A DNA stretch of 64,000 nucleotides from the human T2T-CHM13v2.0 reference genome, Homo sapiens. The stretch lies in assembly GCF_009914755.1 (NCBI RefSeq), contig NC_060930.1; one strand, 5' to 3'. Position 1 is the first letter of the stretch, and each line of letters starts with the position of its first letter. Below, piece after piece: positions 29,184 through 32,356 of the stretch. Under the pieces are notes generated by a model. That model was not told the origin of the DNA. It ran no database searches and saw nothing but the letters and a program-made list of their open reading frames with translations. Both the position numbers and the translations under genes were made by a program.

Positions 29184-29301
29184 AGATAACACTCTCATAG
29201 GAATGTTGTGGGGAACATTGTGTTGTAAAAAAATAACACTTGGAAAGCTCTACAAAGTGCAAAAATCACTTTCAAATGTGGTGACTTAAAACAGCAGCTA
29301 G

Positions 29302-30202
29302 AGCCGACCTGTCCGGGAGGTGAGGGGCGCCTCTGCCCGGCCGCCCCTACCGGGAAGTGAGGAGCCCCTCTGCCCAGCCAGCCGCCTCGTCCGGGAAGGA
29401 GGTGGGGGGGTCAGCCCCGGCCAGCCGCCCCGTCTGGGAGGGAGGTGGGGGGGTCAGCCCCCGGCCCGGCCAGCCGCCGCGTCCGGGAGGTGAGGGGCGC
29501 CTCTGCCCGGCCGCCCCTACTGGGAAGTGAGGAGCCCCTCTGCCCGGCCAGCCGCCCCGTCCGGGAGGGAGGTGGGGGGGACAGCCCCCCGCCCGGCCAG
29601 CCGCCCCACCCGGGGAGGTGAGGGGCGCCTCTGCCCGGCCGCCCCTACTGGGAAGTGAGGAGCCCCTCTGCCCGGCCACCACCCCGTCTGGGAGGTGTAC
29701 CCAGCAGCTCATTGAGAACGGGCCATGATGACAATGGCGGTTTTGTGGAGTAGAAAGGGGGGAAAGGTGGGGAAAAGATTGAGAAATCGGATGGTTGCCG
29801 TGTCTGTGTAGAGAGAGGTAGACATGGGAGACTTTTCATTTTGCTCTGTACTAAGAAAAATTCTTATCCTGTTGATCTGTGACCTTAACCCCAACCCTGT
29901 GCTCTCTGAAACATGTGCTGTGTCCACTCAGGGTTAAATGGATTAAGGGCGGTGCAAGATGTGCTTTGTTAAACAGATGCTTGAAGGCAGCATGCTCGTC
30001 AAGAGTCATCACCACTCCCTAATCTCAAGTACCCAGGGACACAAACACTGCGGAAGGCTGCAGGGTCCTCTGCCTAGGAAAACCAGAGACCTTTGTTCAC
30101 TTGTTTATCTGCTGACCTTCCCTCCACTATTGTCCTATGACCCTGCCAAATCCCCCTCTGCGAGAAACACCCAAGAATGAACAATAAAAAAAAAAAAAAA
30201 AA
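29302..30202 (+). mobile_element. 5'-truncated SVA retrotransposon (VNTR + SINE-R + polyA)
   Basis: GC-rich VNTR units (GGGAGGTGAGGGGCGCCTCTGCCCGGCCGCCCC); SINE-R ending GAGAAACACCCAAGAATGAACAATAAA(A)n. Confidence 0.96.
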
Positions 30203-30207
30203 TTTCA

Positions 30208-30515
30208 GGCCAGGTGCAGTGGCTCATGCCTGTAATCCCAGCACTTTGGAGGACTGAGGTGGGCAGATCACCTGAGGTCAGGAGTTCGAGACCAGCCTGG
30301 CCAACATGGTGAAACCCTGTCTTTACTAAAAATACAAAAAAAATTGGCTGAGTATGGCGCACACCTATATTCCCAGCTACTCAGGAGGCTGAAGCACGAG
30401 AATTGCTTGAAGCTGGGAGGTGGAGGTTGCAGTGAGCTAAGATCACCCCACTGCACTCCAGCCTGGGTGACAGAGTGAGGTTCCATCTCTAAATAAATAA
30501 ATAAATAAAATAAAA
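30208..30515 (+). mobile_element. AluS carried within the SVA 3' transduction
   Basis: Full Alu with its own TSD AAAAATTTCA(G). Confidence 0.9.
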
Positions 30516-30743
30516 ATTTCAGCCCAATATATTAGGAACCCCATTTTAAATGCCACTGTAAACACAATTTATTTTATATCAACTTTAAATATGAAAGCTA
30601 CACTCAAGTAAACCAAACAGCATATTACCTATGAATCTTTACATGTTCATTTAAAAATTTCAGCCCAATATATTAGGAACCCCATTTAAAATGCCATTGT
30701 AGTAAATGACAAGTTAGTAGAAAAAAAAAAAAAACAGCAGCTA

Positions 30744-31050
30744 GGCTGGGCGTGGTGGCTCACGCTTGTAATCCCAGCACTTTGGGAGGACAAGTTGAGA
30801 GGATCACCTGAGGCCAGGAGTTCGAGACCAGCCTGGCCAACATGATGAAACCCCGTCTCTACTAAAAATACAAAAATTAGCCGGGCGTGGTGGCGGGTGC
30901 CTGTAATCCCAGCTACTCAGTAGGCTGAAGCAGGAGAATCCCTTGAACCCGGGAGGCGGAGGCTGCAGTAAGCCGAGATAGCGCCACTGCACTCCAGCCT
31001 GGATGACAGAGCGAGACTCCATCTAAAAAAACAAAAACAAAAACAAAAAA
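30744..31050 (+). mobile_element. AluS, pre-existing, in an MLT1-like LTR remnant
   Basis: TSD AAAACAGCAGCTA at 30731-30743 and 31048-31060. Confidence 0.92.
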
Positions 31051-32356
31051 ACAGCAGCTACCCATTATGTTTTGGCTGGCATTGCTCATTTGTTTGCATT
31101 CAGCTGGCCATTCAGCTGGGGTGGCTGGAAGGGGTGGAGGCTGGCTGACCTTCTTTCTCGAGCAGGGTGGACTGACTTCTTGTATGGTGGCCCAAGGCTC
31201 CAAGAGAATACAGGCAGAAGCAGCCAGGCCTCTTAAAGCCCAGGCTGGAACTGACACTGCAACACTTTTGGTGCGTTCTGTTGGTCAAAGCCAGTTCCAA
31301 GGCCAGCCCAGAATCAAGGGGAGGGGAAACAGCCTCTACCTCCTGGTAGGAGGAGTGACACGACCTAGGGAGAGGAGAAATTGTGGCTGTCTTTGAAAAC
31401 AGCATACCCGGCATGTAAGTTTGGACAAGTGGTGGAAGCCTGGCTTGCCCAACTGGACTAGCACCCTCTCCCAGACTTTCCCAGACCACGCTGACTGTAC
31501 CACTGGGGTCCTGAAGATGATTTGGTGGACCTTGGGAAGCAGCAAATTTGCATTTTGAATTCTCTTTCAATTCTTCTGACACCATCAAAGAGAATCATCT
31601 CAGCCTAGTGCAGCCTATCTGCAACGGCTCTCAAGCACCAGTGAATCGCTGGGTCAGAATTTAGCAGCATCTGGCAGCAAAAGTATTAAAATGTAGCACC
31701 TTGCTTTGTTTCCCCAGCATGCATTTTTAAGATTGCCAAGTGACACTGGCTTTCCATTCCTGAAGGCAGTAGGGAGTTAGCTAAATAAAGAGAGCCACTT
31801 CAACACAGGCATCAGAGCCCAAGGGCTGCTCAGCTCCAGGCTACAAGCTGTCTTCTGATAACACCCCTTTGTCCCCAGAGAAATAGTCAATACCCGCAGA
31901 CCTCACACCCTTAATCTGTCCTCTTTACCACCCTCACCCATCAAACATTTCCTCCTCAATATTAAATTCCAGCCCCACAGAGCTTTTGTGGCATATTTGC
32001 AAGCCTCTTCCAGAAACTTCTCCATGCACTCTCCCCACTCTCTCTTCCCATGGAGGGTGGTGCAGTGGGTCCTGGGGCCAGAACACATGGGTAAAGTCCT
32101 GGGTCTATCACCTGCCGGGCACACCCCACCCCTCACATTTGCAGCCCAGGGCAAGAGTGCAAAGGAGCCTCCCAAAGGAGGCGTCTTGATAGTTAAGGGT
32201 TACAAATAAAGCTGTCCACCCATTACATAAACTATGTCCCAGCTTCCTAGCTGGCAAACATATCTTCCTAGTAACCAAAAAATACGTGTGTGTGTGCACA
32301 TGCACCTGCAGAGCTAGGTTTTCATATGATAAAAGATAGCAAAATATAACAGTAAT

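What the first reader, a model, noticed from the sequence alone, without database searches (positions are those of the whole stretch)
29286..31060. SVA with 3' transduction inserted exactly into an older Alu's target site (triple TSD)
Seen: AAAACAGCAGCTA occurs three times: before the SVA (29288, preceded by TT, an L1 endonuclease TT|AAAA site), after a second poly-A (30731) and after the downstream Alu (31048). The first two copies extend by one G, which is the Alu's first base (30744); the third does not. This orders the events: Alu first, then the SVA at the same nick. The SVA insertion therefore does not end at its own poly-A (30186-30202). It carries ~520 bp of extra sequence (30203-30720: an AluS plus unique DNA) that ends 14 nt after a variant polyA signal, AGTAAA (30701-30706). 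The SVA poly-A also abuts the TSD (AAAAATTTCA) of the transduced Alu, so the source SVA seems to have done the same thing at its own locus. Established: SVAs are mobilised by L1 and make 3' transductions. Inference: this records repeated re-use of Alu TSDs as endonuclease sites along one SVA lineage, and the tag should identify the source element.
Basis: partly seen in the sequence, partly recalled or inferred. Interest (0 to 1): 0.8.

Follow-up and report, generated by a model that had tools for sequence, protein, structure and literature searches.

The report
SVA with transduced flank beside Alu
A truncated SVA retrotransposon that dragged about 520 bases from a PAPOLG intron on chromosome 2 landed at the same cut site an older Alu had used, which is a clean but ordinary example of known LINE-1-driven events.

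Summary
AAAACAGCAGCTA occurs exactly three times (29288, 30731, 31048). The first two copies extend by a G. TT precedes the first copy.

The 518 bp after the SVA poly-A (30203-30720) is a true 3' transduction. Its only other copy is on chromosome 2, in a PAPOLG intron in antisense orientation. It is 98.5% identical there and runs on without poly-A into a GU/U-rich stretch after AGTAAA.

CHM13 has no SVA at that source or within 20 kb either side. An Alu poly-A sits where the SVA poly-A would be. Four other SVAs (chr9, chr11, chr17, chr18) carry the identical SVA-polyA-TTTCA-Alu junction. That makes five copies in the genome and none for the reversed-pattern control. So a full-length source SVA did exist at chr2 and has been lost or is unfixed.

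chr11 is a secondary source. chr17 carries 55 bp of chr11's 5' flank.

"Alu first, then SVA" is supported. The "lineage habit" of re-using Alu target sites is not: the other four members sit at ordinary sites. Shared target-site duplications between tandem inserts are common, with one more in this window and one at chr2.

Verdict: a known kind of event, low interest.

The parts
29286..29301 (+). TT of the L1 endonuclease site TT|AAAA (29286-29287), then TSD copy 1, AAAACAGCAGCTAG (29288-29301)
   Evidence: The final G does not fit the SVA VNTR register. The equivalent base is C at 29471 in this element. It is also C in the chr11 and chr17 relatives, which read GGCC before AGCCGACC.
29302..30185 (+). 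5'-truncated SVA body: VNTR units (about 29302-29700) and the SINE-R part (about 29700-30185). There is no hexamer or Alu-like region.
   Evidence: One search shows VNTR repeat families D1 and D4. In one search, 29690-30185 gave 2088 first-look candidates in the genome; the 40 scored were 96-100% identical. Full-length relatives with a hexamer-like CT-rich head are shown.
30186..30202 (+). The SVA's own poly-A (17 A). The AATAAA signal lies at 30183-30188.
   Evidence: The same A-run plus TTTCAGGCC junction occurs in 5 SVA copies genome-wide.
30203..30720 (+). 3' transduced segment (518 bp) copied from chr2 (PAPOLG intron, antisense). It comprises TTTCA, an old Alu (30208-30511 with its TAAA-rich tail), and 30512-30720 of low-copy DNA that holds an old tandem duplication.
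   Evidence: In one search, 510 of 518 positions are identical to chr2, with no indels. Homology starts at the A-run and ends at GTTAGTAG(A). One search found only chr6, chr2 and a partial chr2 paralogue.
30701..30706 (+). AGTAAA variant poly-A signal, 14 nt before the end of the transduction
   Evidence: At chr2 the cleavage point is followed by TTTCTGTGTGTTCTTTTTTTT, a GU/U-rich downstream stretch.
30721..30730 (+). Poly-A added to the read-through transcript. The A-run continues into the TSD.
   Evidence: chr2 has no A-run at this point.
30731..30744 (+). TSD copy 2, AAAACAGCAGCTAG. Its last G is the first base of the older Alu.
30744..31047 (+). Older Alu: body to about 31025, then an A-rich tail. 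It was the first insertion at this site.
   Evidence: In one search it differs from a majority consensus of 29 Alus at 24 of 282 positions (8.5%), or 12 of 234 non-CpG positions (5.1%). The SVA copy has only 3 private changes in 586 bp.
31048..31060 (+). TSD copy 3, AAAACAGCAGCTA, followed by C. This is the Alu's 3' TSD.

Best explanation
Three L1-mediated events explain the region.

(1) An old Alu inserted at TT|AAAACAGCAGCTA and made a 13-bp TSD.

(2) A full-length SVA sat on chromosome 2, in a PAPOLG intron in antisense orientation. It lay directly upstream of an Alu, with its poly-A abutting that Alu's 5' TSD (A-run plus TTTCA). That allele is not present in CHM13.

(3) A Pol II transcript of that SVA read through the SVA's AATAAA and through the Alu and its TAAA-rich tail. 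It was cleaved 14-15 nt after AGTAAA. L1 machinery nicked the chr6 site at the same TT|AAAA bond the old Alu had used, because the 5' TSD copy keeps the full endonuclease site. The second nick fell 14 nt downstream, one base into the Alu. Reverse transcription stopped in the VNTR, which gave the 5' truncation.

Shown: the structure, the chr2 origin and direction of copying, the poly-A site anatomy, the five-member family, and the chr11-to-chr17 parentage.

Inferred: that the source SVA sat at chr2 itself, that it was lost or never fixed, and the exact nicks.
For: TSD triple and extra G. The G is not SVA-templated, because relatives have C at that position.

Alu much older than the SVA event: 8.5% divergence from consensus, against 3 private changes in 586 bp of the chr6 SVA and 8 differences in 518 bp between the chr6 and chr2 copies.

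Origin: a genome search with 30516-30720 gave 3 hits. These were the window itself, chr2 full-length at 98%, and a partial chr2 paralogue at 91%. chr2 continues past the transduction end without poly-A and with a GU/U-rich stretch. The adjacent exon matches poly(A) polymerase gamma residues 396-435 on the opposite strand (E 5e-21).

Family: the transduced Alu has 5 copies at 99% identity (chr6, chr2, chr11, chr17, chr18), and the next-best hit is 87%. The SVA-polyA-T(T)TCAGGCC junction has 5 genomic matches (chr6, chr9, chr11, chr17, chr18) and none for the reversed-pattern control.

chr6 is 5'-truncated while chr11 and chr17 are full-length, so chr6 cannot be their parent. chr6 alone retains the chr2 low-copy part, so it came from a template that still had chr2 flank.

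Against: No SVA exists at the chr2 source or within +-20 kb in CHM13, so the defining 'SVA directly upstream at the source' is not observed.

At chr2 the A-run before TTTCA is the tail of another Alu. A junction made by RT template switching at an A-run would look identical.

The supplements of PMC12593883 do not mention PAPOLG (0 occurrences in 2 files), so there is no sign of a segregating source in that set.

Of the 8 chr6/chr2 differences, 6 polarise to the chr2 branch, 1 to chr6 and 1 is ambiguous. This asymmetry is unexplained and only suggestive (one-sided binomial about 0.06). It fits a source on a divergent, lost haplotype but does not prove it.

No ape or pangenome sequence could be consulted.
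Confidence: 0.85

Rival explanations
1. The founder was a chimeric retrocopy. L1 reverse transcriptase began on a polyadenylated antisense PAPOLG-intron RNA. It reached the A-run of the upstream Alu tail and switched template to the poly-A of an SVA RNA. This created SVA-polyA-TTTCA-Alu-flank at some third locus, which then seeded the family. No SVA ever sat at chr2.
For: chr2 has an Alu poly-A exactly where the junction lies, which gives ideal microhomology for a switch. CHM13 has no SVA at chr2. [quoted passage not shown]
Against: It needs a Pol II promoter for an antisense intronic RNA, which an upstream SVA would supply for free. It still needs one lost locus, a full-length founder carrying the whole 518 bp, because only chr6 and chr2 hold 30516-30720 and chr6 is truncated. 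So it is no more economical and adds a rare event.
Confidence: 0.09
2. The order was reversed. The SVA with its transduction inserted first, with a 13-bp TSD, and the Alu at 30744 later inserted into the SVA's 3' TSD.
For: Both orders give the same three-copy layout. The extra G is a single base and could be a non-templated addition.
Against: The Alu is 8.5% diverged from an Alu majority consensus (5.1% at non-CpG sites). The SVA copy has 3 private changes in 586 bp. The G at 29301 matches the Alu's first base and not the SVA register, which has C. A later Alu would have needed to nick at AA|AAAA inside the poly-A and still produce a TSD that starts at the same base.
Confidence: 0.03
3. Two separate insertions occurred at chr6: a plain SVA first, then an independent retrocopy of chr2 RNA into the SVA's poly-A.
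For: An insertion within a poly-A would leave an all-A TSD that cannot be seen.
Against: The identical SVA-polyA-TTTCA-Alu junction occurs in four other SVAs at unrelated loci. The junction therefore predates the chr6 insertion.
Confidence: 0.01

Closest known systems
SVA 3' transduction groups, including concatenated and ultra-short transductions (Xing et al. 2006 PNAS, recalled and not held; PMC12593883, passages seen; Hoyt et al. bioRxiv 10.1101/2021.07.12.451456, passages seen)
   Same: There is read-through of the SVA AATAAA and cleavage at a downstream signal. Flank plus a second poly-A lies inside one TSD. A shared tag defines a family. An offspring (chr11) acts as a secondary source and adds its own tail and TSD start to chr17 and chr18. 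chr9 has an 11-nt ultra-short transduction. The source SVA is absent from the reference, as reported for 16% of young transduction-bearing SVAs.
   Different: Nothing differs in mechanism. I could not check whether this particular family (origin in the PAPOLG intron) is listed. The Xing paper is not held and bioRxiv supplements are closed. The supplements of PMC12593883 do not contain PAPOLG.
Tandem Alu insertions (El Sawy and Deininger 2005, seen only as reference 52 of PMC3415434, whose text calls tandem Alu inserts a 'common occurrence')
   Same: A second L1-mediated insert sits head-to-tail against an older one and shares its direct repeat, giving three TSD copies. The same pattern is seen here between plain Alus at 37335-37909 and between the two chr2 Alus.
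   Different: Here the newcomer is an SVA with a transduction rather than an Alu.
Chimeric retrocopies made by L1 RT template switching (recalled: Buzdin and colleagues; template switch with an SVA is mentioned in PMC12593883)
   Same: Two unrelated RNAs are joined within one TSD, with an A-run at the joint.
   Different: The family structure, and the need for a promoter at chr2, fit read-through better. This route is not excluded for the founder.

Membership tests
SVA retrotransposon | Composite order: CT-rich hexamer, antisense Alu-like part, VNTR, SINE-R, AATAAA and poly-A | tested here: met
   The chr6 copy has VNTR, SINE-R, AATAAA and poly-A only, because it is 5'-truncated. Its 99%-identical relatives on chr11 and chr17 show the CT-rich head and Alu-like part. 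The definition itself is recalled (Wang et al. 2005), not read here.
SVA retrotransposon | L1-type insertion hallmarks: TSD, poly-A tail, TT|AAAA-like nick site | tested here: met
   There is a 14-bp TSD (29288-29301 and 30731-30744), TT at 29286-29287, and a terminal A-run from 30721. The nick consensus and 15-16 bp spacing are from PMC2836564 (passages).
3' transduction | Non-element sequence plus a second poly-A lies between the element's own poly-A and the 3' TSD | tested here: met
   30203-30720 and then an A-run, all inside the TSD pair.
3' transduction | The extra sequence maps to one other locus and continues there without poly-A, after a poly-A signal | tested here: met
   The match is chr2:60,791,839-60,792,367 on the minus strand, with 510 of 518 positions identical. 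AGTAAA lies 14 nt before the end, and GU/U-rich DNA follows at chr2.
3' transduction | A source element of the same family sits directly upstream of the transduced DNA | tested here: not met
   CHM13 chr2 has an Alu tail there, not an SVA. blastn of the SVA body against chr2:60,771,000-60,811,000 gave no hit. Indirect substitute: 5 SVAs share the junction.
Tandem insertion with shared TSD | Three copies of one target sequence bracket two same-orientation L1-mediated inserts | tested here: met
   There are three exact copies of the 13-mer, and 0 of 100 shuffles reached the observed count. Both inserts are on the + strand.
Tandem insertion with shared TSD | An empty or intermediate state in an outgroup (Alu alone with a two-copy TSD) | not testable with these tools
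   No ape or pangenome assemblies are held. The genome tool states that it has no relatives for this genome.

The most novel reading that the evidence does not exclude
The progenitor of this five-member SVA family is an 'extinct' or still rare allele in a PAPOLG intron, on a haplotype that differs from the surviving one at several sites. If so, the chr2 target (TTT|AAAAATTTCAG) was hit three times (two Alus and the SVA) and the chr6 target twice. Because each insertion regenerates the full endonuclease site in its 5' TSD, such sites could act as self-renewing hot nicks whose excess re-use could be measured genome-wide. If the PAPOLG source still segregates in humans, it would be an unlisted active SVA source.
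Probability: 0.1. Interest if true: 0.4.

Novelty: new member of a known kind. Interest (0 to 1): 0.22.

Why it matters
The value is mainly as a worked example. One short tag lets a whole SVA lineage be rebuilt: a lost chr2 source gave chr6 and chr11 (the parent of chr9 is undetermined), and chr11 gave chr17 and chr18. It shows directly that a source element can vanish while its offspring persist. It also shows why tandem L1-mediated inserts share target duplications. It adds no new mechanism. No RefSeq gene or functional element in the hub's table overlaps 29286-31060.

Tried and rejected
(1) I looked for an SVA near the chr2 source. blastn of 29302-30185 against 40 kb (chr2:60,771,000-60,811,000) gave no hits.

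(2) I looked for the locus that contributed the second tag (the CAA-rich stretch after the TAAA tail) with a 35-nt pattern at up to 2 mismatches. It matched only chr11 and chr17. The tag turned out to be chr11's own tail plus the start of its TSD, not a separate locus.

(3) Pol III read-through from the chr2 Alus as the template was rejected. The copied segment starts 5 nt upstream of the Alu, passes two TTTT runs, and ends 14 nt after AGTAAA rather than at the T8 run 20 nt further on.

(4) chr6 as founder of the family was rejected because it is 5'-truncated while chr11 and chr17 are full-length.

(5) The tandem Alu pair at 8664-9240 was inspected for a triple TSD. The result is unclear: the tails are A/T-rich and the first Alu's 5' flank was not found again.

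(6) Literature searches. 'SVA, transduction, PAPOLG' returned 3 papers, none relevant. Xing et al. 2006 is not held. PMC9311842 does not mention PAPOLG. The supplements of PMC12593883 have no PAPOLG or 6077/6078/6079-prefixed coordinates. The Hoyt et al. supplement Table S13, which may list this event, could not be opened because bioRxiv supplements are closed.

(8) The Alu and SVA subfamilies were not named because no repeat library is held. Only relative divergence is given.
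Full report
**Observation**

The 13-mer AAAACAGCAGCTA occurs exactly at 29288, 30731 and 31048 on the + strand. A fourth site, at 26320, has one mismatch. 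None of 100 dinucleotide-preserving shuffles gave four matches.

The first two copies continue with G and the third with C (family D7). TT precedes the first copy.

Between copies 1 and 2 lie, in order:
- VNTR-type repeats (families D1 and D4);
- a SINE-R-type segment ending in AATAAA and a 17-A run (30186-30202);
- TTTCA;
- an Alu (from 30208);
- low-copy DNA;
- AGTAAA (30701-30706), then 14 nt, then a second A-run.

Between copies 2 and 3 lies a complete Alu (30744-31047).

**Order of events at chr6**

The G at 29301 is not templated by the SVA. In this element's own VNTR the equivalent base is C (29471). In the full-length relatives the unit also reads ...GGCC before AGCCGACC. The G does match the first base of the Alu at 30744. 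So the SVA's TSD is 14 bp and includes one Alu base.

I aligned 27 Alus from the window with two Alus from chr2. The 27 came from the 34 blastn HSPs, keeping those that span at least 250 nt of the query. The 30744 Alu differs from their majority consensus at 24 of 282 positions (8.5%), or 12 of 234 non-CpG positions (5.1%).

By contrast, the chr6 SVA has 3 private substitutions in 586 aligned bases relative to its four relatives.

The consensus mixes Alu subfamilies, which inflates divergence by a few positions. That cannot close a roughly ten-fold gap. So the Alu came first and the SVA second, both using the TT|AAAA bond. This fits the L1 endonuclease rule of a nick at TTTT|AA on the other strand with a second nick about 15-16 bp away (PMC2836564, passages).

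**Origin of the extra 518 bp**

Searching the held genome with 30516-30720 gave three places:
- the window itself;
- chr2:60,791,839-60,792,043 on the minus strand (full length, 98%);
- a partial paralogue 600 bp away (91%).

Read on the minus strand, chr2 shows this order: flank X0, Alu#1 with an 11-A tail, TTTCA, Alu#2 with a TAAA-rich tail, AAAAATTTCAG, then the low-copy DNA.

chr6 30203-30720 aligns to chr2 with 8 substitutions and no indel. Two of the substitutions are at CpG sites. Homology begins exactly at the A-run and ends at GTTAGTAG(A). chr6 then has poly-A, whereas chr2 continues with TTTCTGTGTGTTCTTTTTTTT.

AGTAAA, a 14-15 nt spacer and a GU/U-rich downstream stretch make up the standard anatomy of a Pol II cleavage and polyadenylation site (established knowledge). 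A Pol III product would have stopped at the TTTT runs inside the segment or at the T8 run beyond it.

The direction is therefore chr2 to chr6 through a polyadenylated RNA.

An exon 400 bp away on the opposite strand matches human poly(A) polymerase gamma residues 396-435 (PDB 4LT6, E 5e-21). So the template lay antisense in a PAPOLG intron.

The internal repeat in the window is an old tandem duplication of the chr2 locus. Its second junction (...TTTAAAAATTTCAGCCC...) shows what the chr2 target looked like before the Alus arrived.

**The missing source**

The A-run before TTTCA is the tail of Alu#1. blastn of the SVA body against chr2:60,771,000-60,811,000 found nothing.

This raised three rivals: a lost source SVA, an RT template switch at the A-run, or two separate insertions at chr6.

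**The family settles most of it**

The SINE-R part (29690-30185) had 2088 first-look candidates. The 40 that were scored were 96-100% identical. I inspected the nine best non-self hits. Four of them (chr18, chr11, chr9, chr17; 99.2-99.4% identical) end in the same A-run followed by T(T)TCAGGCC.

A search with 30186-30520 found the transduced Alu at 99% identity in exactly five places: chr6, chr2, chr18, chr17 and chr11. The next-best Alu scored 87%. This was 40 scored out of 7153 candidates.

A pattern for the junction (SVA end, at least 8 A, up to 20 nt, TTCAGGCC) matches five sites: chr6, chr9, chr11, chr17 and chr18. The reversed control matched none. The junction therefore predates the chr6 insertion, which removes the 'two separate insertions' model.

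The family members are as follows.

| Copy | Structure | TSD |
|---|---|---|
| chr11 | Full length. Transduction ends in the Alu's TAAA tail, followed by a CAA-rich tail. | AAGAAACTAGGCTTC |
| chr17 | Full length. Starts with 55 bp identical to chr11's 5' flank, and ends with chr11's tail plus AGAAA of chr11's TSD, then 28 A. It is therefore a daughter of chr11 with both a 5' and a 3' transduction. | AAGATGGTATCTT |
| chr18 | 5'-truncated. Carries the same tail. | (T)AAAAATAC |
| chr9 | Carries only TTTTTCAGGCC before its poly-A, which is an ultra-short transduction. | AAAAGTCAACTTCAG |

One substitution (30344, T to C) unites chr11, chr17 and chr18 against chr6 and chr2.

Two facts point to a separate full-length SVA as the parent of chr6. 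chr6 is truncated in the VNTR, so it cannot be the parent of the full-length copies. Only chr6 keeps the chr2 low-copy DNA. The parent must still have had chr2 sequence downstream. The simplest place for it is chr2 itself, on an allele that CHM13 lacks.

This is a documented situation. PMC12593883 (passages) traced 84% of transduction-bearing polymorphic SVAs to a source. [quoted passage not shown] The same paper describes concatenated and ultra-short transductions, and also template switching.

A template switch that created a founder at a third, now missing, locus cannot be excluded. It needs an unexplained antisense promoter and a rare event, and it saves nothing. I give it about 9%.

**Results that do not fit neatly**

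At three sites in the transduced Alu (30262, 30263, 30349) all four offspring agree against chr2.

Using the internal paralogues as outgroups, three of the four differences in the low-copy part also fall on the chr2 branch.

In total, 6 differences polarise to chr2, 1 to chr6, and 1 is ambiguous. The asymmetry is only suggestive (one-sided binomial about 0.06). It would fit a source on a haplotype that was already diverged from the surviving one.

Sites 30251 and 30265 show homoplasy among the copies. Site 30265 is a CpG.

**Is TSD re-use a habit of this lineage?**

No. Of the five extant members, only chr6 shares a TSD with a neighbouring same-orientation Alu.

The inferred chr2 source abutted the A-run plus TTTCA that is also Alu#2's 5' TSD. 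That is consistent with re-use but has not been observed.

The same three-copy pattern occurs between ordinary Alus:
- In this window at 37335-37909 (minus strand): AAAAAGAATAATAG(G) twice, plus a diverged third copy.
- At chr2 between Alu#1 and Alu#2: AAAAAACTTCG, AAAAATTTCA, AAAAATTTCA.

A third tandem pair (8664-9240) was unclear.

PMC3415434 (passages) calls tandem Alu inserts a 'common occurrence' and cites El Sawy and Deininger 2005. I saw only the citation. The likely cause is general: the 5' TSD copy of any L1-mediated insert keeps the intact TT|AAAA site.

**Age**

The chr6 copy has 3 private changes in 586 bp of SVA, plus 1-2 in the 518-bp transduction. That is about 0.4%, compared with roughly 0.6% per lineage since the human-chimpanzee split (established figure, recalled). 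The Poisson error spans the split, so ape sharing is undecided.

**Comparison and verdict**

This is an SVA 3' transduction nested in a tandem-insert arrangement. Both are known kinds of event.

Genome-wide catalogues exist. Hoyt et al. (bioRxiv 10.1101/2021.07.12.451456, passages) analysed 7,069 SVAs and report 55 highest-confidence 3' events, with more in Table S13, which I could not open. Xing et al. 2006 is not held. I therefore cannot say whether this locus is already listed.

Searches for PAPOLG with SVA and transduction returned three papers, none relevant, and there were no matches in the PMC12593883 supplements.

No RefSeq gene or functional element in the hub's table overlaps the region.

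Interest is low. The reconstruction of a five-member lineage with a vanished progenitor is tidy but unsurprising to a specialist.

Noticed in passing
window 37335-37909 (minus strand): Two head-to-tail Alus share a target duplication. AAAAAGAATAATAG(G) lies before the first Alu and between the two. A diverged copy (GAAGAATAGGACA) follows the second. This is a second 'triple TSD' in the same 64-kb window.
   Followed up: partly
L002 (chr2:60,790,339-60,793,543), minus strand, about 2320-1700: The two Alus at the source locus also share a target: AAAAAACTTCG, AAAAATTTCA, AAAAATTTCA. They sit at one junction of an old ~145-bp tandem duplication. The other junction of that duplication is an Alu-free copy of the target (TTTAAAAATTTCAG).
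   Followed up: partly
L050/L051/L052 (chr11:83.2517-83.2563 Mb minus strand; chr17:44.2594-44.2621 Mb plus strand): The chr17 SVA carries 55 bp of the chr11 SVA's 5' flank. It also carries chr11's tail and the first bases of chr11's 3' TSD. chr11 is therefore a demonstrable source element that produced an offspring with both 5' and 3' transductions.
   Followed up: yes
L007 (chr9:101.1208-101.1216 Mb, minus strand), oriented positions about 1234-1260: The chr9 family member begins with a ~26-nt piece that is the reverse complement of an upstream SVA VNTR unit, and then continues in sense. This looks like a 5' inversion (twin priming). Its transduction is only TTTTTCAGGCC.
   Followed up: no
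window 30251-30349 versus L002: The CHM13 chr2 allele differs from all four offspring copies at three positions of the transduced Alu, two of them adjacent. It carries most of the polarised chr6/chr2 differences (6 versus 1, with 1 ambiguous). Possible causes are a lost divergent haplotype, a clustered mutation, or Alu gene conversion at chr2.
   Followed up: partly
window 8664-9240 (minus strand): Another tandem Alu pair is separated by only AAAAAAATAATAG. It is followed by a long A/T-rich tail. It is unclear whether the two share a TSD.
   Followed up: no
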